Shown here piece after piece: positions 6,528 through 33,641 of a stretch of 64,000 nt of DNA. Under the pieces are notes generated by a model, which saw nothing but the letters and a program-made list of their open reading frames with translations, did not search any database and was not told the origin of the DNA. The position numbers and the translations under genes are program-made. Within the stretch, counting starts at the first letter, position 1. Every line of letters starts with the position of its first letter. Source of the stretch: Escherichia coli O127:H6 str. E2348/69 (lineage in GTDB: Bacteria > Pseudomonadota > Gammaproteobacteria > Enterobacterales > Enterobacteriaceae); NCBI RefSeq assembly GCF_000026545.1, contig NC_011601.1; one strand, written 5' to 3'.

Positions 6528-7514
6528 ATGAACAACAGCGCTTTTACTTTCCAGACACTACACCCGGATACCATCATGGACGCTCTGTTTGAGCATGGGA
6601 TTCGGGTGGATTCCGGTCTTACCCCGCTTAACAGCTATGAAAACCGTGTCTATCAATTTCAGGACGAAGATCGTCGACGTTTTGTCGTCAAATTTTATCG
6701 CCCTGAACGTTGGACAGCCGATCAAATCCTCGAAGAACATCAATTTGCGTTGCAGCTGGTTAACGATGAAGTTCCGGTCGCAGCACCTGTGGCCTTTAAT
6801 GGTCAGACTTTATTGAACCATCAGGGATTTTATTTCGCTGTTTTTCCAAGCGTCGGTGGTCGCCAGTTCGAAGCTGATAATATCGATCAGATGGAAGCGG
6901 TTGGGCGTTATTTAGGGCGTATGCACCAGACGGGGCGCAAACAGCTTTTTATCCATCGCCCGACCATCGGTTTGAATGAATATCTCATTGAGCCACGCAA
7001 GCTGTTTGAGGACGCTACACTGATACCTTCCGGGTTGAAAGCGGCATTTCTGAAAGCGACAGATGAGCTGATCGCCGCCGTTACAGCACACTGGCGGGAA
7101 GATTTCACCGTTCTGCGGCTACATGGAGACTGCCACGCCGGGAATATTCTCTGGCGCGATGGTCCAATGTTTGTTGATCTGGATGATGCACGTAATGGTC
7201 CGGCTATTCAGGATTTGTGGATGTTGCTCAATGGCGATAAAGCCGAGCAGCGGATGCAACTGGAAACTATTATTGAAGCTTATGAAGAATTTAGCGAGTT
7301 CGACACCGCTGAAATCGGACTGATTGAACCTTTACGCGCCATGCGTTTGGTTTATTATCTTGCCTGGCTAATGCGGCGTTGGGCTGATCCCGCGTTCCCG
7401 AAAAATTTCCCGTGGTTAACCGGGGAAGATTACTGGCTGCGACAGACGGCGACTTTTATAGAACAGGCAAAAGTTCTACAAGAACCCCCTTTGCAATTAA
7501 CACCTATGTATTAA
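6528..7514 (+). CDS. srkA: Stress response Ser/Thr protein kinase SrkA (YihE/RdoA)
   Basis: 328-aa ORF with kinase-like catalytic motifs (HGDCHAGNILW, VDLDD); conserved position upstream of dsbA. Confidence 0.9.
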   Translation: MNNSAFTFQTLHPDTIMDALFEHGIRVDSGLTPLNSYENRVYQFQDEDRRRFVVKFYRPERWTADQILEEHQFALQLVNDEVPVAAPVAFNGQTLLNHQGFYFAVFPSVGGRQFEADNIDQMEAVGRYLGRMHQTGRKQLFIHRPTIGLNEYLIEPRKLFEDATLIPSGLKAAFLKATDELIAAVTAHWREDFTVLRLHGDCHAGNILWRDGPMFVDLDDARNGPAIQDLWMLLNGDKAEQRMQLETIIEAYEEFSEFDTAEIGLIEPLRAMRLVYYLAWLMRRWADPAFPKNFPWLTGEDYWLRQTATFIEQAKVLQEPPLQLTPMY

Positions 7515-7530
7515 TCGGAGAGAGTAGATC

Positions 7531-8157
7531 ATGAAAAAGATTTGGCTGGCGCTGGCTGGTTTAGTTTTAGCGTTTAGCGCATCGGCGGCGCAGTATGAAG
7601 ATGGTAAACAGTACACTACCCTGGAAAAACCAGTTGCTGGCGCGCCGCAAGTGCTGGAGTTTTTCTCTTTCTTCTGCCCGCACTGCTATCAGTTTGAAGA
7701 AGTTCTGCATATTTCTGATAACGTGAAGAAAAAACTGCCGGAAGGCGTGAAGATGACTAAATACCACGTCAACTTCATGGGGGGTGACCTGGGCAAAGAG
7801 CTGACTCAGGCATGGGCTGTGGCGATGGCGCTGGGCGTGGAAGACAAAGTCACAGTTCCGCTGTTTGAAGGCGTACAAAAAACCCAGACCATTCGTTCAG
7901 CATCTGATATCCGCGATGTATTTATCAACGCAGGTATTAAAGGTGAAGAGTACGACGCGGCGTGGAACAGCTTCGTGGTGAAATCTCTGGTCGCTCAGCA
8001 GGAAAAAGCTGCAGCTGACGTGCAATTGCGTGGTGTTCCGGCGATGTTTGTTAACGGTAAATATCAGCTGAATCCGCAGGGTATGGATACCAGCAATATG
8101 GATGTTTTTGTTCAGCAGTATGCTGATACTGTGAAATATCTGTCCGAGAAAAAATAA
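7531..8157 (+). CDS. dsbA: Periplasmic thiol:disulfide oxidoreductase DsbA
   Basis: 208-aa ORF with signal peptide and CPHC active site ([13 protein letters not shown]). Confidence 0.95.
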
Positions 8158-22412: not shown

Positions 22413-24236
22413 GTGATCGAAAAATTGCGTAATATCGCCATCATCGCGCACGTAGACCATGGTAAAACCACCCTGGTAGACAAGCTGCTCCAACAATCCG
22501 GTACGTTCGACTCTCGTGCCGAAACCCAAGAGCGCGTGATGGACTCCAACGATTTGGAGAAAGAGCGTGGGATTACCATCCTCGCGAAAAACACCGCTAT
22601 CAAATGGAATGATTACCGTATCAACATCGTTGATACCCCGGGGCACGCCGACTTCGGTGGTGAAGTTGAACGTGTAATGTCCATGGTAGACTCAGTGCTG
22701 CTGGTGGTTGACGCATTTGACGGCCCGATGCCGCAAACGCGCTTCGTAACCAAAAAAGCGTTTGCTTACGGCCTGAAGCCGATTGTTGTTATCAACAAAG
22801 TTGACCGCCCTGGCGCGCGTCCTGATTGGGTTGTGGATCAGGTATTCGATCTGTTCGTTAACCTCGACGCGACCGACGAGCAGCTGGACTTCCCGATCGT
22901 TTACGCTTCTGCGCTGAACGGTATCGCGGGTCTGGACCACGAAGATATGGCGGAAGACATGACCCCGCTGTATCAGGCGATTGTTGACCACGTTCCTGCG
23001 CCGGACGTTGACCTTGACGGTCCGTTCCAGATGCAGATTTCTCAGCTCGATTACAACAGCTATGTTGGCGTTATCGGCATTGGCCGCATCAAGCGCGGTA
23101 AAGTGAAGCCGAACCAGCAGGTTACTATCATCGATAGCGAAGGCAAAACCCGCAACGCGAAAGTCGGTAAAGTGCTGGGCCACCTCGGTCTGGAACGTAT
23201 CGAAACCGATCTGGCGGAAGCTGGCGATATCGTGGCGATCACGGGTCTTGGCGAACTGAACATTTCTGACACCGTTTGCGACACGCAAAACGTTGAAGCG
23301 CTGCCGGCACTCTCCGTTGATGAGCCGACCGTTTCTATGTTCTTCTGCGTTAACACCTCGCCGTTCTGCGGTAAAGAAGGTAAGTTCGTAACGTCTCGTC
23401 AGATCCTGGATCGTCTGAACAAAGAACTGGTACACAACGTTGCGCTACGCGTAGAAGAAACCGAAGACGCCGATGCGTTCCGCGTTTCTGGTCGTGGCGA
23501 ACTGCACCTGTCTGTTCTTATTGAAAACATGCGTCGTGAAGGTTTCGAACTGGCGGTATCCCGTCCGAAAGTAATCTTCCGTGAAATCGACGGTCGTAAA
23601 CAAGAGCCGTATGAAAACGTGACGCTGGACGTTGAAGAACAGCATCAGGGTTCTGTGATGCAGGCGCTGGGCGAACGTAAAGGCGACCTGAAAAACATGA
23701 ATCCAGACGGTAAAGGCCGCGTACGTCTCGACTACGTGATCCCAAGCCGTGGTCTGATTGGCTTCCGTTCTGAGTTCATGACCATGACTTCTGGTACTGG
23801 TCTGTTGTACTCCACCTTCAGCCACTACGACGACGTACGTCCGGGTGAAGTGGGTCAGCGTCAGAACGGCGTACTGATCTCTAACGGTCAGGGTAAAGCG
23901 GTAGCGTTCGCGCTGTTCGGTCTGCAGGATCGCGGTAAGCTGTTCCTCGGTCACGGTGCTGAAGTTTACGAAGGTCAGATTATCGGTATTCACAGCCGCT
24001 CTAACGACCTGACTGTAAACTGCCTGACCGGTAAGAAACTGACCAACATGCGTGCTTCCGGTACTGACGAAGCCGTTGTTCTGGTTCCGCCTATCCGCAT
24101 GACTCTGGAACAAGCTCTGGAGTTCATCGATGATGACGAGCTGGTAGAAGTGACTCCGACCTCTATCCGTATTCGTAAACGTCACCTGACGGAAAACGAT
24201 CGTCGTCGCGCCAACCGCGCACCGAAAGACGATTAA
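22413..24236 (+). CDS. typA: Ribosome-associated translational GTPase BipA/TypA
   Basis: 607-aa ORF with EF-G-like GTPase motifs ([18 protein letters not shown]). Confidence 0.95.
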
Positions 24237-24259
24237 TTTCGTTTTTTAGTCATAAAAAA

Positions 24260-24285
24260 CCTGCCAGCGATGGCAGGTTTTTTTT
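24260..24285 (+). terminator. Rho-independent terminator downstream of typA
   Basis: Hairpin CCTGCCAGCGATGGCAGG followed by an 8-nt T-run. Confidence 0.8.
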
Positions 24286-24342
24286 GGCTTATGGAAAACA
24301 AAATCCGCTGAAATTCCCAGCGGATTTTCCGAAGTTTCAATT

Positions 24343-25131
24343 TCAGGATACTTCTTGCTCGGCAACCACCAGTTCAACATTCTCTTCACTTAACAACTGG
24401 CAGAAAGAATTGGGAGGTGGGGCATCAGTAAAAAAAGCCCTGACATTCCGTGCATTGCCAATTGAAACGGCAGCAGACGCGGTAAACTTCGTATGATCGG
24501 CCACTAACAATGTATTCCGCGCATGTTTAATCATCGTTCTCGCGACTAACGCTTCATTGACATCAAATTCCAGCAGGGTGCCGTCATGTTCAATGGCACC
24601 TATACTGGTGATTAAATAATCTGCGCGGAAGCCTTCAATAAAATCCACGGCTCCTGGGCCGATAATCCCACCGTTATGAGCGCGTAAAGTGCCTCCCGGC
24701 ACCATCACTTCAATATCCTGATTCTTATAAAGAATCTGTGCCACACGCAGGCTATTAGTGATAATGCGTAAATCACGCCGGTTGAGTAATGCCCTGGCAA
24801 CGGCTTCTACGGTTGTACCGATGGTGATAAAGACGGTACAGCGTTCGGGAAGGTAATCGGCGACTGCCTCAGCGATCGCCCGTTTCTCGGCGGTGAGCGA
24901 AAGTTCCCGTTGCTCAAAAGCGGTATTCATGACGCTGGAGACGCGCCCGGCCCCTCCATGATGACGGGTGATCAAGCCCTGCTCACTGAGTTTTCGGATA
25001 TCCCGGCGCACGGTTTGCGTTGAAACATCCAGCAGTTGTGCCAGTTCTTCAATATTCATATAACCGCGTTCTGCGATTAGATGAACGAGTTGGTCATGGC
25101 GTGGATTACCTGTCACTGCGATGATACTCAT
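24343..25131 (-). CDS. DeoR-family transcriptional repressor, CsqR/YihW-like
   Basis: 262-aa ORF with N-terminal HTH (LLDVSTQTVRRDIRKLSEQGLI) and DeoR C-terminal sugar-phosphate binding domain; similar to, but clearly diverged from, E. coli K-12 YihW as I recall it. Confidence 0.8.
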   Translation of the reverse strand: MSIIAVTGNPRHDQLVHLIAERGYMNIEELAQLLDVSTQTVRRDIRKLSEQGLITRHHGGAGRVSSVMNTAFEQRELSLTAEKRAIAEAVADYLPERCTVFITIGTTVEAVARALLNRRDLRIITNSLRVAQILYKNQDIEVMVPGGTLRAHNGGIIGPGAVDFIEGFRADYLITSIGAIEHDGTLLEFDVNEALVARTMIKHARNTLLVADHTKFTASAAVSIGNARNVRAFFTDAPPPNSFCQLLSEENVELVVAEQEVS

Positions 25132-25170
25132 GAATACTCCCTTGCCCCTCCTCGGTAGATGTTTACCATT

Positions 25171-26067
25171 TTACGCATAAAGTGACAAAAATGATTCGGT
25201 TTGCTCACGATTAGGAATGCCGGCCCGACCGCCAGGCTGGGTACATTTCATCGCGGCAACCGCACTGGCAAAACGAATAGCCTCTTTTGTTGGCATTTTT
25301 TCTGCCAACGCTACCGCGAGTGCGCCGTGAAAAACATCGCCTGCTCCAGTGGTATCAACCACATTGACAGAAAATGCCTCCTGTTGACACAAATGACCAT
25401 CTTCAATCCACAACGATCCTTCAGAACCCAGCGTAACATACACTTTACCTGCTGTTTGTGTCGTTGCCTGGAACAAACCTTCTTCAGGTGACTGCAGGCC
25501 AGTCATGCGTTTCAGCCCTGGTGTTGAGAACACGGCGTGATCGGCAAGCGCGACAAGTGGAGAAATATCCTGCGGTGTCATATCGGCGTCTAAAAGCGTT
25601 GTCACACCCGCAAGGCGCGCTAGCGAGAATGCTTTTTCAGTACCGCTATGCCAGCGAACATCGGCCAGAATCAGATCATAACGAGAGAAATCGATCGCTT
25701 CTAACCATTCGGCATCAGTACCGAGATCAGGACTTGGATAATTAACGATAATCCGTTCGCCATGCTGATCAACGAGGATCGCTGATTGCGACGAACGGGC
25801 GTTAGGATATCGGCGGCAAAATGCGGTATTGACGCCCCAACCCTCAAGTTCTGCAAGTAAGGTATTTCCACAACTGTCATCGCCGACGCGACCGATGAAA
25901 TCAACCTCCACGCCAAGCTTTGCGATTGCAACAGCGGCTGTTGCTGCCGGGCCGCCACCAATCTCAAGATAATGATTTGCCTGATATTTCCCGCCACCCT
26001 CCGGCAGAGTGGGCAAAGAATAAATTCTGTCCTGAACTGTGATACCCACGCATGCAATTCTGGTCAT
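25171..26067 (-). CDS. PfkB-family sugar kinase, YihV (sulfofructose kinase)-like
   Basis: Ribokinase/PfkB motifs ([12 protein letters not shown] near the C-terminus); 298 aa from the internal ATG at 26067 ([11 protein letters not shown]...); the longer 315-aa track ORF would overlap the divergent neighbour. Confidence 0.8.
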
Positions 26068-26239
26068 ATTTGTCTTGTCCTGTTTAATTTTGTCGTCTTT
26101 GGTCAATTTAAATGACACAAATGATCAAATTAGTGATGCGTGTCGTGTTTTTGAACATAAATTACAAATATGCTCAAAAACAGACGAAAACGAATTTTCA
26201 ATTGTCATTATTTTGTCAATGTCAGACAGGAGAGTATTC

Positions 26240-27118
26240 ATGGCAACCATTGCATTTCTCGGGCTGGGGCAGATGGGTAGCCCAATGGCTAACAATCTAT
26301 TGCAAAAAGGGCATTCATTGCAGGTATTTGATGTCAATACACAGGCCGTCGATGCGCTAGTTACGCAGGGGGCCACTGCGGCACAAACCCCAGCGGAAGC
26401 GGCAGCAAGCGCTGAATTTATCATCACTATGCTTCCCAATGGGGACATTGTTCGACAGGTGCTGTTGGGGGAAAAAGGCGTCTGTGAAACTGTTTCATCT
26501 GACGCGTTATTGATTGATATGTCGACTATTCATCCCTTACAGACCGATGCATTAATACGGGAATTACAAGAAAAAGGCATCAATATGATGGACGCCCCCG
26601 TGGGCAGAACGTCAGTGAATGCGATTGATGGCACATTGCTGATTTTAGCGGGCGGCACTGATGAGCAGATTGCGCGTGCACGCCCGATTCTCATGTGCAT
26701 GGGTAATGAGCTGGTCGAGGCTGGCGGCCCAGGAATGGGGATCCGCGTGAAGCTAATTAACAACTATATGAGCATTGCGCTTAATGCGCTGTCCTCCGAA
26801 GCCGCTGTGTTATGTGAGTCACTGGGATTAAATCTTGATGTCGCAATTAAGGTGATGAGTGGTACGGCAGCAGGGAAAGGACATTTTACGACCACCTGGC
26901 CTGGCAAAGTGCTGAAAGGCGATCTTTCTCCCGCCTTCATGGTGGACCTGGCATTGAAAGATCTGCGTATTGCAGTTGACGTCGCTCGGGAAACGGGGGC
27001 GCCGCTCAATATGGGGATTGCAGCAGAAAGTTATTACGCCGCAGCAAGTCAAGACGGCAAAGGGCGGCAGGACTGGAGCGCCCTGCTAAATCAGGTTCGC
27101 CAGCAGGCTGGTCTTTAA
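26240..27118 (+). CDS. NAD(P)-dependent beta-hydroxyacid dehydrogenase, YihU (sulfolactaldehyde reductase)-like
   Basis: Rossmann motif at the N-terminus ([17 protein letters not shown]) typical of the HIBADH/GarR/YihU family; ATG at 26240 preceded by an AGGAGAG Shine-Dalgarno. The 359-aa track ORF is an upstream extension. Confidence 0.8.
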
Positions 27119-27142
27119 TTTTATCTATTAACAGGAGTTTCT

Positions 27143-28030
27143 ATGTCATCCCACTTCACCCCATTTACGCTGAAAGATATCTCCCGCCCAGGTGGTGGAT
27201 TCGCCATGTTAGCTGTCGATCAGCGTGAGGCCATGCGCCTGATGTTTGCGGCAGCAGGGCAGCCAAAACCCATCGCCGACAGTGTACTCACCGATTTTAA
27301 AGTTGCCGCGACCCGAATCCTTTCTCCTTATGCTTCTGCCGTTCTGGCGGATAAACAATTTTGTCTTGAACAAATAGTCGAGCAGGGCGCTGTGGCTAAT
27401 TCTTGCGGCCTGATTGTCGCTGCCGATCTTTTTATCCCAGGTAATGGCATCCCGGTTGATAGCGTTGAAATAGATATGTCCGTCGACCCGCATAAAGCCC
27501 GTGAAATGGGGGCTAAGGCAATGAAATTACTTGTACTCTGGCGTGAAGATGAACCCGCAGAGGAACGTCTGGCAATGGTTGATAAATTTGTTCGTCGCTG
27601 CCGTAGTGCCGGGCTGGTTAGCATTATTGAACCTGTGGTGCGTCCACCTCGTCGCGGTTGGGACTTTGATCGTGAAAGCGCCATTGTTGCCGCCGCCGCA
27701 GAGCTTGGTGGAACAGAGGCTGATCTTTACAAAGCCGAGATGCCATTAGGGGGCAAAGGCGATGAAAAAACCTTACTTGCCGCCTGTCAGCAACTTAACG
27801 ATCAGATGAAGATGCCGTGGGTAATTCTTTCTTCTGGCGTTGATGCCGATATTTTTGGCCGTGCAGTAAGTATTGCCATGAAAGGTGGTGCGTCGGGCTT
27901 CCTGGCTGGACGAGCGGTTTGGGCGTCGGTTGTTGGTGCACAAGATCCACAAACCATGCTGCGCGATGTCTCCGTTCCACGCTTGCAACGGCTGGCTGAA
28001 ATTGTCGATGAAGGTATCGCGCAACGCTAA
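27143..28030 (+). CDS. Class I aldolase, YihT (sulfofructose-phosphate aldolase)/LacD-like
   Basis: 295-aa ORF (…[15 protein letters not shown]…, IEPVVRPP) homologous to YihT/tagatose-bisphosphate aldolase; diverged from the K-12 YihT sequence as I recall it. Confidence 0.8.
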
Positions 28031-28062
28031 TCCCCTATGGATATCGATTCTGGAGAATAACA

Positions 28063-29073
28063 ATGGATAAAATTACCCAGGTTTTATTTTCAGATATTGG
28101 GAAAGTCACCACTCAATATGTTGAAGTACCACACCAGCAACTTAAACCGCACGAAGTACGGATTGCGCCCGTGTTCTACGGGATATGCGGTTCGGATCTG
28201 CATGTTCTGAAAGGCGGTCATCCGTTTGCCAAACCGCCTGTCGTCCCCGGTCATGAAATTGCAGCGCGCGTTACGGAAGTGGGCAGCGACGTTAAAAATG
28301 TACAGCCGGGCGATCATGTTGTGGTCGATCCCATCATGGCTTGCATGGAATGCCGAGCCTGCAAAGCAGGACGTTTTAATCTTTGTGAACCACCGCAGGT
28401 TGCTGGTTTTCGCGCACCGGGCTTTGCTCGCTCACAACACATTGTTCCTGCGCGTAATTGCCATGTCGCACCAGCCTCTTTACCGCTAAAAGTGTTGGCC
28501 TTTGCCGAACCGGCGGCTTGTGCTCGTCACTGCGTTAACCGAATGCCGAAAGCTTCTCTGGAAAGCGTACTGGTGATTGGTGCCGGAACGATAGGCTTAT
28601 CCATCGTGCAGGCACTGCGCATTATGGGGGCAGGTAAGATTACCGTGATTGAACCTGACGCTGCCAAACGCGCGCTGGCGTTAAAACTGGGCGCAGCAGA
28701 AGTTTGGGCACCAGGTGAGCTGGCCGCAGATGTGCGATTTACGGGGGCGATTGATGTCGTTGCAGCGCAGGCCACGCTTAACGATGCATGTACCCGTGTA
28801 TATGCCGGAGGCACCGTCGTGTGCATGGGCGTACCAAGTGGGCCGCGTGAAATACCATTACCGATGATGCAACGTTTCGAGCGTGACTTGCTCAACTCTG
28901 GCATGTACATCCCTGAAGATTTCGATGCTGTTATCGAATGGCTGGCGGATGGGCGGTTTGATACCAGTGAACTGGTTACCGATTTATTTGCCATTGAGGA
29001 TGCAGCGGCGGCATTCGAACGCGCGCAGCAAAATGACTCCATAAAGGTCATGCTGCAATTTGCGCCGGAATGA
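28063..29073 (+). CDS. Zn-dependent medium-chain alcohol/polyol dehydrogenase (sorbitol/threonine dehydrogenase-like)
   Basis: 336-aa ORF with catalytic-zinc motifs GICGSDLH and PGHE, structural-zinc Cys cluster (CMECRACKAGRFNLC) and Rossmann GAGTIG. Confidence 0.8.
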   Translation: MDKITQVLFSDIGKVTTQYVEVPHQQLKPHEVRIAPVFYGICGSDLHVLKGGHPFAKPPVVPGHEIAARVTEVGSDVKNVQPGDHVVVDPIMACMECRACKAGRFNLCEPPQVAGFRAPGFARSQHIVPARNCHVAPASLPLKVLAFAEPAACARHCVNRMPKASLESVLVIGAGTIGLSIVQALRIMGAGKITVIEPDAAKRALALKLGAAEVWAPGELAADVRFTGAIDVVAAQATLNDACTRVYAGGTVVCMGVPSGPREIPLPMMQRFERDLLNSGMYIPEDFDAVIEWLADGRFDTSELVTDLFAIEDAAAAFERAQQNDSIKVMLQFAPE

Positions 29074-29142
29074 TTTTCTAAATCTCTGTCTGGCGCTGCG
29101 TCACGTCAGCGCCACCCTACAACAATTAAAAAGGACACTGCG

Positions 29143-30576
29143 ATGAGTCAAATCACCAGTCCTGAAACTTATTCAATTAGTCGGCCACAGGACGTAATTG
29201 ATATTGTTAATAAGAACTCTGCAATCAACACCAGTATCGGCGTTATTTTTATTGCTTTGGGCGGCATATTGATTGATGCCTACCAGGCGGCGATGGTGGG
29301 GTTTGGTAATAAATACATTGCCGCTCAATTCGGCATTTCGCCGGGTCTTGCTGCAACCGTCAATGCATCAGTATTAATCGCCGCGTTAATTGGCGGTTTA
29401 TTAGCGAACCGAGTAATAAACCGCTTTGGGCAAAAGCGGGCATTTATTATTGGCATGGGGCTGTGCACCATCGGTGCTGCAGCGGTAGCTATTGCTCCCA
29501 GTATCTGGTGGGTGCTGGTGTGCCGCGTCATCATGGGCTTTGGTTTAGGCATCGACTTCCCTTTGGCAACCAATGCCGTGGCAGAGCTTCGTGGTTCAAC
29601 GTCGAAGAAAACCGGAACGTCGGTCAACCTCTGGCAAATGGCCTGGTATGTTTCGACAACCGTTGTTTATTTGGTGCTTTTGCCGCTGCTTCTGTCGGGT
29701 ATCGCTGAAGAACAATTGTGGCGTTACGGAATATTCATCGGAGCTATTTTTGCAGTCATCTTCATGATTTTGCGTTACTTCTTTATTGGTGAATCCGCAA
29801 TGTGGGCCGCACGCGTCGGGCGTTACCAGGAAGCGTGCGACATTCTGGGAAAACGTTATGGTGTTCAGGCTCGCGTTGCGGCATCGGGTACAACAGAAGC
29901 GAAATTCTCGGAAAAAGCAGAGAATAAATACAGTGGTGGATATGGCATCTTATTTAATGATCGTTACCGCAAACGCACCATTCTTGGCTGTGTCGTGGCA
30001 ACCATGCAGGCGTGGCAATATAACGCCGTAGGTGTTTATCTTCCTCTTACGTTGGCGGGAATAATAAGTGGCGGGCTTACTGGCGCGTTGACCGGTTCTG
30101 CCGTCGTGAATGCCCTTTGTGGGGTGACAGGCGGGATGATCGGCTCGTTTATTCTCCAACGACTGGGTACTCGCCGACAGTCGATGTATGGATTTGCTGT
30201 TGTGACCTTAGCATTGCTGTCGTTAGGCGCACTGGCAACGACTAATCCCTGGCTGTCTTTAGGGTTATTGGGATCAATTATTTTCTTCCATTCAGCGGGT
30301 CCTGGTGGGCTGGGCATGACCATTGCCACACTCTCTTATCCTCCCGCTATTCGCCCTACTGGGGTCGGATTTGCCCGCGCTATTATGCGCACAGGGGCAA
30401 TTGCAGGACTCATTTTCTGGCCGATGCTGTGGGGTGCGTTGAAAACTGAAGCGTTTTACTGGTTGGCAATCGTGCCATTCCTGGGATTCCTGACCTGTGT
30501 ATTGATTAATTGGGAACCACTGGGTGCAAATGTTGATGCTGAGGACGCAGAGGTTCTGGCTGAATTGAAGAAATAA
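29143..30576 (+). CDS. MFS transporter (12 predicted transmembrane segments)
   Basis: 477-aa highly hydrophobic ORF with MFS-like loop motifs (ANRVINRFGQKRAF); substrate unknown. Confidence 0.7.
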   Translation: MSQITSPETYSISRPQDVIDIVNKNSAINTSIGVIFIALGGILIDAYQAAMVGFGNKYIAAQFGISPGLAATVNASVLIAALIGGLLANRVINRFGQKRAFIIGMGLCTIGAAAVAIAPSIWWVLVCRVIMGFGLGIDFPLATNAVAELRGSTSKKTGTSVNLWQMAWYVSTTVVYLVLLPLLLSGIAEEQLWRYGIFIGAIFAVIFMILRYFFIGESAMWAARVGRYQEACDILGKRYGVQARVAASGTTEAKFSEKAENKYSGGYGILFNDRYRKRTILGCVVATMQAWQYNAVGVYLPLTLAGIISGGLTGALTGSAVVNALCGVTGGMIGSFILQRLGTRRQSMYGFAVVTLALLSLGALATTNPWLSLGLLGSIIFFHSAGPGGLGMTIATLSYPPAIRPTGVGFARAIMRTGAIAGLIFWPMLWGALKTEAFYWLAIVPFLGFLTCVLINWEPLGANVDAEDAEVLAELKK

Positions 30577-30579
30577 TTT

Positions 30580-30609
30580 AATGCGCATCGGTTTAAGCCG
30601 ATGCGCATT
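30580..30609. other. Perfect 12-bp-stem inverted repeat between the two MFS genes (possible terminator or operator)
   Basis: AATGCGCATCGG-TTTAAG-CCGATGCGCATT directly after the stop codon of the first MFS gene; no strong T-run follows. Confidence 0.5.
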
Positions 30610-30674
30610 AATTCAAACTGCCCACGTTTAGTGGTTCGTATCCCAGATTTCTCGCCTACCAGGAGAGGAAAATT

Positions 30675-32024
30675 ATGTCTGAAAAGTTACCCGCACCGCG
30701 TGAAGGGCTTTCCGGTAAAGCCATGAGACGTGTCGTTATGGGCAGTTTCGCAGGCGCGTTAATGGAATGGTATGACTTCTTTATTTTTGGCACGGCAGCA
30801 GGACTGGTATTTGCACCGCTGTTTTATCCAGACAGCGATCCTTTTATAGGTCTTATAGCTTCCTTTGCGACCTTTGGTGTCGGTTTTCTGACTCGTCCTT
30901 TAGGTGGCATCGTCTTTGGTCATTTTGGCGATAAAATAGGGCGAAAAATAACGCTTATCTGGACGTTGGCTATTGTCGGTTGCTCCACATTTTTGATTGG
31001 TTTTATTCCGACGCATCAGGAAATTGGGATCTGGGCACCGCTCATATTAATGGTGCTACGTTTAATTCAGGGCTTTGGTCTTGGTGGCGAGTACGGCGGA
31101 GCGGCATTGATGACCATAGAATCAGCGCCCGAATCCCGACGCGGATTTTTAGGTTCACTCCCGCAAACGGCTGCGTCTGTGGGTATTATGCTGGCAACCG
31201 GTATTTTTGCTCTCTGTAACCATTTTCTGACTTCGGAGCAGTTTCTCTCCTGGGGATGGCGCATTCCGTTTTGGCTTTCTGCGGTGATGTTGATCGTTGG
31301 GCTGTTTATCCGCCTGCATACCGAAGAAACGCTGGATTTTCAAAAGCAAAAAACGACGAATAATAAAGAAAAGCCCGTTCCTCCGTTGATTGAATTATTC
31401 AAAAAACATCCACGAAATATTTTATTGGCACTGGGTGCGAGGCTGGCGGAAAGTGTCTCCTCTAATATTATTAACGCCTTTGGTATTGTCTATATTTCCA
31501 GCCAATTAGCATTGTCGCGAGATATTCCCCTGACGGGTATGTTGATTGCCTCGGCGATCGGTATTTTCAGTTGTCCATTGGTTGGATGGTTATCAGATCG
31601 TATAGGTCAAAAAAGTCTGTATTTGTCGGGAGCAGGATTTTGTGTCCTGTTCGCGTTTCCTTTCTTCTTATTACTGGATAGCAAAAGTACGCTCATCATC
31701 TGGTGCAGTATGATCCTCGGCTACAACTTAGGTCCGACGATGATGTTTGCCGTGCAGCCAACACTTTTCACCCGCATGTTCGGTACCAAAGTACGATATA
31801 CCGGCCTTTCTTTTGCTTATCAATTTTCCGCGATTCTTGGCGGACTAAGCCCCCTTATCGCCTCAAGTTTGCTGGCGCTAGGGGGAGGAAAACCGTGGTA
31901 TGTCGCTCTGTTTTTATTTGCTGTCTCAGTTCTTTCCTTTGTTTGCGTCTGGCTGATTGAGCCGACCGATGAACAAGAAACCGCTTCTTACTGCTACATC
32001 AGGGAACAATCTCATGAAAACTGA
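30675..32024 (+). CDS. MFS metabolite:H+ symporter (MHS family, ProP/KgtP-like)
   Basis: 449-aa ORF with the characteristic MHS motif GHFGDKIGRKITL and 12 hydrophobic segments. Confidence 0.75.
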   Translation: MSEKLPAPREGLSGKAMRRVVMGSFAGALMEWYDFFIFGTAAGLVFAPLFYPDSDPFIGLIASFATFGVGFLTRPLGGIVFGHFGDKIGRKITLIWTLAIVGCSTFLIGFIPTHQEIGIWAPLILMVLRLIQGFGLGGEYGGAALMTIESAPESRRGFLGSLPQTAASVGIMLATGIFALCNHFLTSEQFLSWGWRIPFWLSAVMLIVGLFIRLHTEETLDFQKQKTTNNKEKPVPPLIELFKKHPRNILLALGARLAESVSSNIINAFGIVYISSQLALSRDIPLTGMLIASAIGIFSCPLVGWLSDRIGQKSLYLSGAGFCVLFAFPFFLLLDSKSTLIIWCSMILGYNLGPTMMFAVQPTLFTRMFGTKVRYTGLSFAYQFSAILGGLSPLIASSLLALGGGKPWYVALFLFAVSVLSFVCVWLIEPTDEQETASYCYIREQSHEN

Positions 32025-32901
32025 ACGAAAAAACGAGCATTACCTGGCGCTACAACAGGCGTTTGACGCGCCATGGCCTGGGCCTGTAGGAGAGTTAGTG
32101 ATGCTGGAAAAAGGCAATATTCACCTGCAGATTTATCCGCATGATGGTGCCAGGATAACCTCGTTAAAGGCATTTGGTTCTGAAGTATTACGCCAATGGC
32201 AGCCGCAGCGCAGAGCTTTTCAGTATAGCTGTTTCCCAATGGTGCCGTGGGCAGGGCGACTGGGGAATGCGACGCTGAATGCTGGTGGGCAATGTTATTC
32301 TTTACCCGCCAATAAACCACCACATGCGTTGCATGGTATGGCTTGTTACTCAACGTGGGAAATCATCGACAAAACAGCAGATTCCCTGACTTTACGTATG
32401 CCCCTGGCTTCACCGTGGCCCTGGCAAGGGGAAGTGATTCAGACTTTTTTGCTGGAGAACGATGCGCTGGTTTTGCAACTGGAAGTCCATTCATATGCCG
32501 ATACATTCCCGGCCTCCGCAGGCTGGCATCCGTGGTTTGCGAAAAAGCTGACTCCGCAAAATACAGAATCGTTGCAGGTGCTTTTTGATGCGGACTGGCA
32601 AGAAGAAGCGGGTAGTGATGAACTGCCAACTGGAAATCGTATCTCTCCTCAAGTTGGTCCCTGGGATGACTGTTTTGGTTTTTATGACGGGGTGAAGGTT
32701 AAGTTACTGTGGCCTGGTAAACTCGCGATGACCATGACCTCTTCTGCAAACAGTCTGGTGGTATTTGATAAACAGCCCGATGCCACCTGTATTAACCCAC
32801 TGACTCAGGCACCTAACGCAATAAATCTAACGCCGGAATTTGTGACACCAGATAAGCCGCTGGTCATCGAAACTCGTTGGCAATTTACACCTGAATCTTA
32901 A
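32014..32901 (+). CDS. Aldose 1-epimerase (mutarotase) family protein, YihR-like
   Basis: About 295 aa from the ATG at 32014 (MKTERKNEHYLALQQ...) preceded by an AGGGAA Shine-Dalgarno; start overlaps the stop of the upstream MFS gene (ATGAAAACTGA), suggesting translational coupling. Mutarotase-like fold is inferred from sequence character only. Confidence 0.65.
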   Translation: MKTERKNEHYLALQQAFDAPWPGPVGELVMLEKGNIHLQIYPHDGARITSLKAFGSEVLRQWQPQRRAFQYSCFPMVPWAGRLGNATLNAGGQCYSLPANKPPHALHGMACYSTWEIIDKTADSLTLRMPLASPWPWQGEVIQTFLLENDALVLQLEVHSYADTFPASAGWHPWFAKKLTPQNTESLQVLFDADWQEEAGSDELPTGNRISPQVGPWDDCFGFYDGVKVKLLWPGKLAMTMTSSANSLVVFDKQPDATCINPLTQAPNAINLTPEFVTPDKPLVIETRWQFTPES

Positions 32902-33041
32902 CCATTCATCTATTGCGAAAAAGCCAGTGAAATTACTCTGCTTTTTCGCAATCAGCATCACAAGATTACCCTTATTGCCACATAGCCAAACCCATCCTTT
33001 CCCGCTACAGTTAATTTCTTGTGGCGCGAAAGGAGGCAAAA

Positions 33042-33641
33042 ATGCTCTATATCTTTGATTTAGGTAATGTGATTGTCGATATCGACTTTAACCGTGTGCT
33101 GGGGGCCTGGAGCGATTTAACGCGTGTTCCACTGGCTACGCTTAAGAAGAGTTTCCACATGGGCGAGGCGTTTCATCAGCATGAGCGTGGGGAAATTAGC
33201 GACGAAGCGTTCGCAGAGGCACTGTGTCATGAGATGGCCCTGCCGCTAAGCTATGAGCAGTTCTCCCACGGTTGGCAGGCGGTATTTGTTGCGCTACGAC
33301 CGGAAGTGATCGCCATCATGCATAAACTGCGTGAGCAGGGGCATCGCGTGGTGGTGCTTTCCAATACTAACCGCCTGCATACTACCTTCTGGCCGGAGGA
33401 ATACCCGGAAATCCGTGATGCTGCTGACCATATCTATCTGTCGCAAGACTTGGGTATGCGCAAACCTGAAGCACGAATTTATCAGCATGTTTTGCAGGCA
33501 GAAGGTTTTTCACCAGACGATACGGTCTTTTTCGACGATAACGCCGATAATATAGAAGGAGCTAATCGGCTAGGCATTACTAGTATTCTGGTGAAAGATA
33601 AAACCACCATCCCGGACTATTTCGCGAAGGTGTTATGCTAA
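33042..33641 (+). CDS. yihX: HAD-family alpha-D-glucose-1-phosphate phosphatase YihX
   Basis: 199 aa from the ATG at 33042 ([13 protein letters not shown]..., HAD motif I DxGxV) with an AGGAGG Shine-Dalgarno. Confidence 0.85.

What the first reader, a model, noticed from the sequence alone, without database searches (positions are those of the whole stretch)
30580..30609. Perfect 12-bp inverted repeat between the two MFS transporter genes
AATGCGCATCGG-TTTAAG-CCGATGCGCATT is a perfect palindrome directly after the first MFS stop codon and about 65 bp before the second MFS start. It lacks a clear U-tract, so it may act as an operator for a dimeric regulator (the cluster's DeoR-type regulator is a candidate) or as an mRNA-stabilising or partial-termination hairpin that sets relative expression of the two transporters.
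Basis: seen in the sequence. Interest (0 to 1): 0.3.

Follow-up and report, generated by a model that had tools for sequence, protein, structure and literature searches.

The report
Conserved mRNA hairpin between two transporter genes
The palindrome is real and is best read as an ordinary RNA stem-loop in the messenger between two co-transcribed transporter genes. Related bacteria keep its base-pairing, so it is not a binding site for the cluster's DeoR regulator.

Summary
AATGCGCATCGG-TTTAAG-CCGATGCGCATT lies at 30580-30609. The perfect arms are really 14 bp (30578-30591 and 30598-30611). The stem starts 2 nt after the MFS1 stop codon and ends 63 nt before the MFS2 start. Shuffled sequence gives about 0.03 such repeats per window.

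The window is E. coli E2348/69, and the locus is the published "short yih cassette". The palindrome is single-copy and occurs in 1328 of 5426 complete E. coli genomes. In the four E. coli alleles aligned, the arms are identical.

In 20 distinct orthologous spacers (Escherichia, Citrobacter, Mixta, Trabulsiella and others), 6 of 12 stem pairs carry changes on both sides. G·U wobbles occur at 6 pair positions on the sense strand and A·C never. More distant taxa have unrelated hairpins at the same position. Pairing in the sense-strand RNA is therefore what is conserved, not a DNA sequence.

The arms do not recur in any promoter region. The likely YihW/CsqR operator is a different conserved repeat at 26146-26182. 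The U-tract is poor in E. coli (2 of 8) and variable elsewhere.

Best reading: a stabilising or weakly attenuating stem-loop between the two genes that favours MFS1 over MFS2 expression. This is a new member of a known kind, of low interest.

The parts
29143..30576 (+). MFS1: upstream MFS transporter gene (477 aa); stop codon TAA at 30574-30576
   Evidence: ORF list; RefSeq annotation WP_000078442.1; weak matches to NCBIfam aromatic acid/H+ and sugar porter MFS subfamilies
30578..30611 (+). Hairpin 1, the finding: 14 perfect base pairs (30578-30591 with 30598-30611) plus a U30592·G30597 wobble and a UUAA loop. The reported 12-6-12 palindrome is 30580-30609
   Evidence: -24.2 kcal/mol, z -6.5; covariation in 20 orthologous spacers; sense-strand G·U bias
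30622..30634 (+). Hairpin 2: small CCAC-GUUUA-GUGG stem-loop, followed by the U-rich UUCGUAU. In the Enterobacter/Phytobacter/Erwinia clade its counterpart is an 11-bp terminator-like hairpin followed by UUUUCUC
   Evidence: -5.2 kcal/mol, not significant in E. coli; compensatory change in L036
30648..30670 (+). Helix 3: UUUCUC (30648-30653) pairs with GAGGAA (30665-30670), and CCU (30655-30657) with AGG (30661-30663). This occludes the MFS2 Shine-Dalgarno sequence AGGAGAGG (30661-30668)
   Evidence: -8.1 kcal/mol, z -1.3; 97.8% of cells paired in 20 sequences, with one pair covarying (GC 13, UA 4, GU 2)
30675..32024 (+). MFS2: downstream MFS transporter gene (449 aa, metabolite/H+ symporter family)
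   Evidence: TIGR00883, 404 bits; below the curated cut-off of 443

Best explanation
The palindrome acts as RNA, not DNA. It is a stable stem-loop in the sense-strand polycistronic mRNA of the yihU-aldolase-ADH-MFS1-MFS2-epimerase operon, and it abuts the MFS1 stop codon.

Shown here:
- The structure exists and is far more stable than chance.
- Its pairing, its strand and its position after the MFS1 stop codon are conserved across genera, while its sequence changes.

Inferred:
- The genes are co-transcribed. This rests on same-strand genes, a 98-nt spacer, and no promoter-like or good terminator-like match on the + strand.
- The stem-loop blocks 3'-to-5' exonucleases (PNPase, RNase II). After cleavage or termination downstream, the upstream segment ending in MFS1 would outlive the MFS2-epimerase segment. 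The hairpin may also cause a little termination.
- Together with the weak helix over the MFS2 ribosome-binding site, this would set MFS1 above MFS2.
- Because the stem starts 2 nt after the stop codon, each terminating ribosome must open it. This could additionally slow termination at MFS1, as reported for REP elements close to stop codons.
For: - Stability and chance.
- Single copy, found in 1328 of 5426 E. coli genomes, all within 3 differences of one 62-nt allele. The arms are identical in the four alleles aligned.
- 20 distinct orthologous spacers: 6 of 12 stem pairs have changes on both sides, 82.8% of cells are paired against 42-56% when the partner is slid, and 0 of 500 shuffles reach the covariation score.
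- In the 16 rows outside the Enterobacter clade there are 13 G·U cells at 6 pair positions and no A·C, so only the + strand transcript keeps the helix.
- Unrelated hairpins follow the MFS1 stop in Leminorella, Budvicia, Edaphovirga, Citrobacter Awk4/NCU1, Vibrio, Sutterella and Succinivibrionaceae. Five of the 7 spacers tested have z of -2.8 or lower.
- The base of the stem lies within 7 nt of the stop codon in most loci.
- The U-tract is variable (0-5 of 8), so the hairpin rather than termination is the constant feature.
- Precedent: U-less stable stem-loops mark and protect mRNA 3' ends in E. coli (Dar & Sorek 2018, PMC6061677). REP hairpins stabilise upstream mRNA, and those close to stop codons stall ribosomes (summarised in PMC12306157).
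- The K-12 long cassette also has a U-less GC hairpin between its two transporter genes yihP and yihO.
Against: - There are no transcript data for this site. The published Nissle 1917 RNA-seq supplement lists nothing for the two MFS genes.
- Covariation shows selection on pairing but does not tell a decay barrier from a leaky terminator.
- Three orthologous junctions (L021, L022, L032) have 15-19-nt spacers with no hairpin, and the Enterobacter/Phytobacter/Erwinia clade has a degenerate hairpin 1, so the element is dispensable.
- The sequences are related, so the shuffle control overstates significance.
- The GCGC core of the stem never varies and says nothing either way.
Confidence: 0.5

Rival explanations
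1. A leaky intrinsic terminator (attenuator). Part of the RNA polymerase population stops just after the GC-rich core stem, in the A/U-rich AUUAAUUC tail. This lowers MFS2-epimerase transcription relative to the upstream genes.
For: The GC-rich 9-bp core is followed by AUUAAUUC, which is 7 of 8 A/U. In a Citrobacter-like metagenome clade the homologous hairpin is followed by UUUUUCG (5 of 8 U), and in Vibrio by ACUUUUUCC. In the Enterobacter/Phytobacter/Erwinia clade the same spacer holds an 11-bp hairpin followed by UUUUCUC. Some termination between MFS1 and MFS2 therefore seems to recur.
Against: In E. coli only 2 of the 8 nt after the full stem are U, and the scan calls no + strand terminator. 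Most orthologues have 0-3 U. No promoter-like site exists in the spacer to restart MFS2 transcription. A ribosome stopping 2 nt upstream would hold the left arm open during coupled transcription and translation (inference).
Confidence: 0.25
2. An operator: a dimeric transcription factor (the cluster's DeoR/YihW protein or another) binds the 12-6-12 DNA palindrome and acts as a roadblock or a looping partner.
For: The dyad symmetry is perfect. Each arm contains the self-complementary octamer ATGCGCAT, and the two octamers are 20 bp apart centre to centre. YihW/CsqR forms cooperative multimeric complexes on DNA (PMC8006165, PMC12608037).
Against: - No second copy of the half-site occurs in the cluster or its promoters, in E. 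coli or in orthologues.
- The octamer frequency in the window is at chance.
- Orthologues change arm bases by compensatory and G·U changes that destroy DNA dyad symmetry.
- Distant orthologues have unrelated hairpin sequences at the same place.
- The promoter region where YihW is known to bind has a different repeat conserved with K-12, TGTTTTTGAACATA/TATGCTCAAAAACA.
Confidence: 0.04
3. A terminator for the opposite strand: the hairpin plus the following ATTATTTCTT stops antisense transcripts that start inside MFS2 before they enter MFS1.
For: The scan lists it as the best terminator-like site in 24000-33500, on the - strand: 14 pairs, 7 of them GC, with tail ATTATTTCTT. A promoter-like match on the - strand lies at 31492-31465.
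Against: The T-rich tail is the complement of the conserved C-terminal Lys/Glu codons and the TAA stop, so it is explained by coding. The G·U pairs in orthologues become A·C mismatches in the - strand RNA. Mixta, for example, would lose 3 of its 11 core pairs, in addition to the one mismatch it already has. The - strand helix is therefore not what is conserved.
Confidence: 0.05
4. No function: a chance or mutationally generated palindrome, for example made by template switching, that is simply tolerated in a non-coding spacer.
For: The spacer can do without it (L021, L022, L032; degenerate in the Enterobacter clade). The loop alleles TTTAAG and CTTAAA are reverse complements of each other, which shows that hairpin-associated mutation does occur here.
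Against: Pairing is maintained through changes on both sides at 6 of 12 pairs. Independent hairpins sit at the same junction in distant taxa. The arms are identical in the four E. coli alleles aligned, and all 1328 genomes lie within 3 differences of one 62-nt allele.
Confidence: 0.1

Closest known systems
U-less protective stem-loops at the steady-state 3' ends of Rho-dependent E. coli transcripts (Dar & Sorek 2018, PMC6061677)
   Same: An energetically stable stem-loop just after a coding region, not followed by a U-run, and suited to block PNPase and RNase II.
   Different: Here the next gene follows 63 nt later on the same transcript. No mapped 3' end is available. The C/G ratio downstream is unremarkable: 1.06 over 78 nt (77th percentile for the operon) and 2.0 over only the first 49 nt. 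A rut site is therefore not evident.
Intercistronic REP stabilisers (malE-malF type), and REP elements within about 15 nt of a stop codon that stall ribosomes (Newbury/Higgins work; Liang, Rudd & Deutscher 2015; as summarised in PMC12306157)
   Same: A stable palindrome between cistrons of one operon, close to the upstream stop codon, expected to favour the upstream gene's mRNA.
   Different: It is not a REP. It is single-copy in every genome, has no resemblance to the REP consensus as I recall it (own knowledge, not tested here), and is a perfect rather than an imperfect palindrome.
Intrinsic (Rho-independent) terminators and attenuators
   Same: A GC-rich stem with an A-rich 5' flank. Homologues in some species do carry a U-run.
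   Different: The E. coli copy has 2 U in the 8 nt after the stem, and it sits inside an operon.
The yihP-yihO intergenic hairpin of the K-12 long yih cassette
   Same: A GC stem-loop (ACGCCC-UGCG-GGGCGU) without a U-run, between the two transporter genes of the sister cassette.
   Different: The sequence is unrelated, the stem is much shorter (6 bp), the transporters belong to a different family, and it lies directly against the Shine-Dalgarno sequence.
Rfam psRNA14 (RF02351)
   Same: A long near-perfect hairpin with a similar top (CAUCGG-UUUAAG-CCGAUG against cAccGgcUAAAgcCggUg).
   Different: The score is 30.1 bits against a gathering threshold of 60, and it matches both strands. This is a generic resemblance between hairpins, not membership.

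Membership tests
Intrinsic terminator | GC-rich stem-loop of 5 or more pairs with a short loop | tested here: met
   14 pairs, 7 of them GC, 4-6 nt loop, -24.2 kcal/mol
Intrinsic terminator | U-run immediately 3' of the stem on the transcribed strand | tested here: not met
   The + strand tail is AUUCAAAC, with 2 of 8 U. It is not listed among the + strand sites
Intrinsic terminator | Measured termination of RNA polymerase | not testable with these tools
   Needs in vitro transcription or Term-seq
REP/BIME elements | Many dispersed copies per genome | tested here: not met
   One locus per genome in 1328 genomes. The 2 places reported per genome are the two strands of the same palindrome
REP/BIME elements | Extragenic position within transcription units | tested here: met
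   It lies between MFS1 and MFS2
DeoR/CsqR (YihW) operator | Located in a regulated promoter region | tested here: not met
   It lies between co-oriented genes, and the spacer holds no promoter-like match
DeoR/CsqR (YihW) operator | Shares a motif with the regions that YihW is known to bind (yihU/V and yihV/W spacers) | tested here: not met
   No half-site with up to 2 mismatches occurs in 24343-29143. The conserved repeat there is TTTTGA-N19-TCAAAA
DeoR/CsqR (YihW) operator | Both half-sites conserved as DNA sequence in orthologues | tested here: not met
   The arms vary by compensatory and G·U changes
DeoR/CsqR (YihW) operator | Protein binding | not testable with these tools
   Needs a gel shift or ChIP
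Protective 3' stem-loop / intercistronic mRNA stabiliser | Stable stem-loop on the sense transcript downstream of a cistron, without a U-run | tested here: met
Protective 3' stem-loop / intercistronic mRNA stabiliser | Pairing under selection on the sense strand | tested here: met
   6 of 12 pairs have changes on both sides; 13 G·U cells against 0 A·C
Protective 3' stem-loop / intercistronic mRNA stabiliser | C-rich, G-poor Rho-loading region just downstream (for the Rho-dependent subtype) | tested here: inconclusive
   C/G is 1.06 over 78 nt (77th percentile for the operon) and 2.0 over 49 nt
Protective 3' stem-loop / intercistronic mRNA stabiliser | RNA 3' end at the foot of the stem, and a longer half-life for the upstream segment | not testable with these tools
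   No transcript-end data were found for any strain with this cassette
Rfam psRNA14 (RF02351) | Score at or above the gathering threshold | tested here: not met
   30.1 bits against 60

The most novel reading that the evidence does not exclude
The stop-codon-abutting hairpin, the small middle hairpin and the helix over the MFS2 ribosome-binding site might form one conserved intercistronic control module. It would set the ratio of the two transporters (perhaps an importer and an exporter) of an uncharacterised 8-gene sulfosugar-like pathway. It could work by sensing ribosome traffic at the MFS1 stop, through ribosome stalling or remodelling of the spacer. In Mixta and C. amalonaticus, freeing the right arm lets GUCGGCG pair with CGCCGAC and opens the ribosome-binding site. 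This alternative pairing is absent in E. coli.
Probability: 0.08. Interest if true: 0.4.

Novelty: new member of a known kind. Interest (0 to 1): 0.15.

Why it matters
The significance is modest. It would explain how two adjacent transporter genes of one operon can be expressed unequally. The locus is the "short yih cassette", carried by about a quarter of complete E. coli genomes, including EPEC E2348/69 and ATCC 25922 here and, per the literature, Nissle 1917. Its substrate and regulation are still unknown. The result also removes a false lead: the palindrome should not be counted as a YihW/CsqR operator. The comparative data give a clean small example of selection on RNA pairing, with compensatory changes and strand-specific G·U pairs.

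Tried and rejected
- Other copies of the palindrome, its half-site or the ATGCGCAT octamer in the window and cluster promoters: none beyond chance. The same holds for the arms of 14 orthologous loci.
- A dispersed repeat family: blastn of 47-nt and 62-nt queries against 5426 E. coli genomes finds only this locus.
- Rfam: only a sub-threshold psRNA14 match, plus noise. No paper mentions psRNA14.
- A Rho-loading signature downstream: C/G ratio unremarkable.
- A ribosome-dependent switch between the right arm and the anti-Shine-Dalgarno region: predicted in Mixta and C. amalonaticus only, not in E. coli or most others. Rejected as a general mechanism.
- A - strand terminator: rejected because the G·U pairs become A·C on that strand.
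- Expression data: the supplement of PMC12608037 has no values for the two MFS genes. No Term-seq paper for Nissle 1917 is held. The Liang et al. 2015 paper could not be opened and is cited only through PMC12306157.
- No explicit CsqR motif was found in PMC10991401 or PMC8006165. The operator candidate is my own inference from conservation.

Full report
**Observation**

The window reads taa-ttt-AATGCGCATCGG-TTTAAG-CCGATGCGCATT-aattcaaac at 30574-30618. The pattern occurs once, and never in shuffles.

- The perfect complementarity runs two base pairs further out than reported. The arms are 14 bp, at 30578-30591 and 30598-30611.
- In RNA, a U·G pair closes a UUAA loop.
- The stem begins 2 nt after the TAA stop of the upstream MFS gene (29143-30576). 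The reported palindrome ends 65 nt before the ATG of the downstream MFS gene (30675-32024).
- The isolated hairpin folds at -24.2 kcal/mol, with z = -6.5.
- Perfect inverted repeats with 12-bp arms and 3-10-nt loops occur at four places in the window. Shuffles give a mean of 0.03.
- The other three have A/T runs within the outer ends of their arms, so their stems end in a T-run. This one alone lacks a T-run on the sense strand. The 8 nt after its stem hold 2 U, and the scan calls no + strand terminator there.

**Where this is**

The window is identical to the E. coli E2348/69 chromosome between typA and yihX. The cluster runs as follows:

- a DeoR regulator (24343-25131, - strand) and a sugar kinase (25171-26067, - strand);
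- divergently, yihU (26240-27118), an aldolase (27143-28030) and a Zn-dependent alcohol dehydrogenase (28063-29073);
- then MFS1, MFS2 and an aldose 1-epimerase (32014-32901).

The first four proteins are 67-72% identical to K-12 CsqR/YihW, YihV, YihU and YihT. The dehydrogenase and both MFS proteins have no counterpart in the K-12 cassette. This is the "short yih cassette" of Kaznadzey et al. 2025 (PMC12608037). That paper describes only yihTUVW. [quoted passage not shown]

**Population and copy number**

The site is present in 1328 of 5426 complete E. coli genomes, always at one locus. The two "places" reported per genome are the two strands of the same palindrome. It is therefore not a REP-like dispersed repeat.

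Identity bands indicate three main alleles. Counts are inferred from the bands and from one representative sequence per allele:

| Allele | Loop | Other change | Records |
|---|---|---|---|
| E2348 type | TTTAAG | none | about 865 |
| 13P484A type | CTTAAA | T-to-A at 30577, lengthening the stem to 16 bp | about 441 |
| PS10-3 type | CTTAAG | none; a perfect 34-bp palindrome | 20 |

All genomes lie within 3 differences of the 62-nt perfect allele. In the four alleles aligned, the differences lie in the loop or outside the 12-bp arms.

**Comparative evidence**

A scan of one genome per species with MFS1 returned 28 loci. A DNA-pattern scan of metagenomes added 11 more orthologous spacers. The whole 8-gene arrangement is conserved in Escherichia, Citrobacter, Mixta, Trabulsiella, Erwinia, Enterobacter, Phytobacter, Edaphovirga and Succinivibrionaceae. 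In Leminorella, Budvicia and Vibrio all but the aldolase were detected. It is rearranged in alpha- and betaproteobacteria.

Twenty distinct spacers could be aligned (alignment A3). On that alignment:

- 6 of the 12 pairs of the core helix carry changes on both sides. For example, pair 10-36 appears as AU, CG, UA, GC and GU, and pair 15-31 as GC, AU and GU.
- 82.8% of cells are paired, against 42-56% when the 3' partner is slid by 1-3 columns.
- No shuffle out of 500 reaches the covariation score. The sequences are related, so this control overstates significance.
- In the 16 rows outside the Enterobacter clade, the core holds 152 Watson-Crick cells and 13 G·U cells at six different pair positions. 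It holds no A·C cell.
- A G·U pair in the + strand RNA is an A·C mismatch in the - strand RNA and a mismatch between DNA half-sites. The conserved object is therefore the helix in the sense-strand transcript.

Beyond alignable sequences, unrelated GC-rich hairpins of -13 to -25 kcal/mol follow the MFS1 stop in Leminorella, Budvicia, Edaphovirga, Citrobacter Awk4/NCU1, Vibrio, Sutterella and Succinivibrionaceae. Five of the seven spacers tested fold with z of -2.8 or lower. In most loci the foot of the stem lies within 7 nt of the stop codon.

There are exceptions. Three divergent loci have 15-19-nt spacers with no hairpin. The Enterobacter/Phytobacter/Erwinia clade has a degenerate hairpin 1 but a strong second hairpin followed by UUUUCUC.

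**Operator hypothesis**

- The 12-mer half-site (up to 2 mismatches) and the internal octamer ATGCGCAT do not recur in the cluster beyond chance.
- The arms of 14 orthologous loci do not recur in their own promoter regions.
- The spacer has no promoter-like match.
- The kinase/yihU divergent promoter region holds a different inverted repeat, TGTTTTTGAACATA/TATGCTCAAAAACA at 26146-26182.
- The core of that repeat is conserved in the K-12 yihU/V spacer despite about 79% overall identity.
- That spacer is the DNA that both K-12 and Nissle YihW bind in gel shifts (PMC12608037; PMC8006165).
- The compensatory and wobble changes also make the two DNA half-sites unequal in other species. I put the operator reading at about 4%.

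**Terminator or stabiliser**

On the + strand the E. coli tail is poor in U. The core stem is followed by AUUAAUUC, which is A/U-rich. U content after the homologous stems ranges from 0 to 5 of 8. A Citrobacter-like metagenome clade has GCGCUUUUUCG and Vibrio has ACUUUUUCC. Weak termination is therefore possible and probably real in some species, but it is not the constant feature.

The constant feature is a stable, mostly U-less stem-loop at the end of MFS1. This matches two known cases: the stem-loops that define and protect steady-state 3' ends in E. coli (Dar & Sorek 2018, PMC6061677), and the classical REP stabilisers between cistrons (summarised in PMC12306157). A clear Rho-loading signature downstream is lacking.

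The scan does list the hairpin as terminator-like on the - strand, with tail ATTATTTCTT. That tail is the complement of the Lys-Lys-stop codons, and the wobble pattern rules out conservation of the - strand helix.

**Most likely mechanism**

- *Shown:* a stable sense-strand RNA helix, with its pairing and position conserved.
- *Inferred:* the genes are co-transcribed. After cleavage or termination downstream, 3' exonucleases stop at the helix. The yihU-to-MFS1 segment then persists longer than the MFS2-epimerase segment. A minor fraction of polymerases may also terminate at the helix.
- The weakly stable but sequence-conserved helix over the MFS2 Shine-Dalgarno sequence (30648-30670; 97.8% of cells paired, one covarying pair) would act in the same direction.
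- The helix abuts the stop codon, so a Liang-type slowing of termination at MFS1 is conceivable but untested.
- Rfam has no family for it.
- The K-12 long cassette has an analogous U-less hairpin between yihP and yihO.

**Verdict**

It is an undescribed but ordinary member of a known kind of element. Interest is low (0.15). The side observations on the locus are listed separately.

Noticed in passing
window 30592-30597 (hairpin loop) and 30577: The two major E. coli alleles have loops that are reverse complements of each other: TTTAAG in about 865 genomes and CTTAAA in about 441. A rare intermediate, CTTAAG (20 genomes), makes a perfect 34-bp palindrome. The CTTAAA allele also carries T-to-A at 30577, which lengthens the stem to 16 bp and keeps the folding energy about equal (-24.0 against -22.5 to -24.2 kcal/mol). 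The cause is either loop inversion by template switching or two C-to-T changes on opposite strands.
   Followed up: partly
window 30648-30670: UUUCUC, about 20 nt upstream, pairs with the MFS2 Shine-Dalgarno region (GAGGAA). The sequence is almost invariant across Escherichia, Citrobacter, Mixta, Enterobacter, Phytobacter and Erwinia. One inner pair covaries (U-A in E. coli, G-C in Citrobacter). The helix is only -8.1 kcal/mol (z -1.3). It is a possible brake on MFS2 translation.
   Followed up: partly
L010, L028, L030 about 7470-7500; L036 about 7440-7470: In Erwinia typographi, Enterobacter sp. 10-1, Phytobacter and a metagenome relative, hairpin 1 is degenerate. The same spacer holds an 11-bp hairpin CUGUGGGUGA...UCACCCACAG followed by UUUUCUC, with a compensatory variant (GGGC/GCCC) in L036. 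This is a terminator-like element whose U-run is also the anti-Shine-Dalgarno strand.
   Followed up: partly
window 32912-32952: A second U-less perfect inverted repeat (13-bp arms ATTGCGAAAAAGC/GCTTTTTCGCAAT, 15-nt spacer, -18.7 kcal/mol, z -4.8) starts 10 nt after the epimerase stop codon, at the end of the operon.
   Followed up: partly
window 26146-26182: The inverted repeat TGTTTTTGAACATA-N9-TATGCTCAAAAACA lies in the kinase/yihU divergent promoter region. Its core (TTTTTGA...TCAAAAACAGAC) is conserved in the K-12 yihV/yihU spacer. It is a likely YihW/CsqR operator, and the papers I could read gave no explicit motif.
   Followed up: partly
window 24343-32901; loci L005-L032: The published "short yih cassette (yihTUVW)" is really part of an 8-gene locus: DeoR, kinase, yihU-like reductase, aldolase, Zn-dependent alcohol dehydrogenase, two MFS transporters and an epimerase. 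The eight genes are syntenic across many Enterobacterales and Succinivibrionaceae; in Vibrio, Leminorella and Budvicia all but the aldolase were detected. The locus is rearranged in alpha- and betaproteobacteria. It has no isomerase (YihS) or sulfoquinovosidase (YihQ), which suggests a different, unidentified substrate.
   Followed up: partly
L055 3768-3809 (K-12 yihP-yihO spacer, - strand): The long cassette also has a GC hairpin without a U-run (ACGCCC-UGCG-GGGCGU) between its two transporter genes, directly upstream of the yihO Shine-Dalgarno sequence.
   Followed up: no
L016 and L009, spacer about 7432-7539: In Mixta and C. amalonaticus the right arm of hairpin 1 (GUCGGCG) is complementary to CGCCGAC inside the anti-Shine-Dalgarno helix. 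When the left arm is blocked, as by a terminating ribosome, the predicted fold frees the MFS2 ribosome-binding site. This is not seen in E. coli.
   Followed up: yes
window 24248-24328: Two back-to-back terminator-like hairpins lie between typA (+) and the DeoR gene (-): AAAAAACCUGCCA/UGGCAGGUUUUUUUU for typA, and AAAAUCCGCUG/CAGCGGAUUUU on the - strand for the regulator gene.
   Followed up: no
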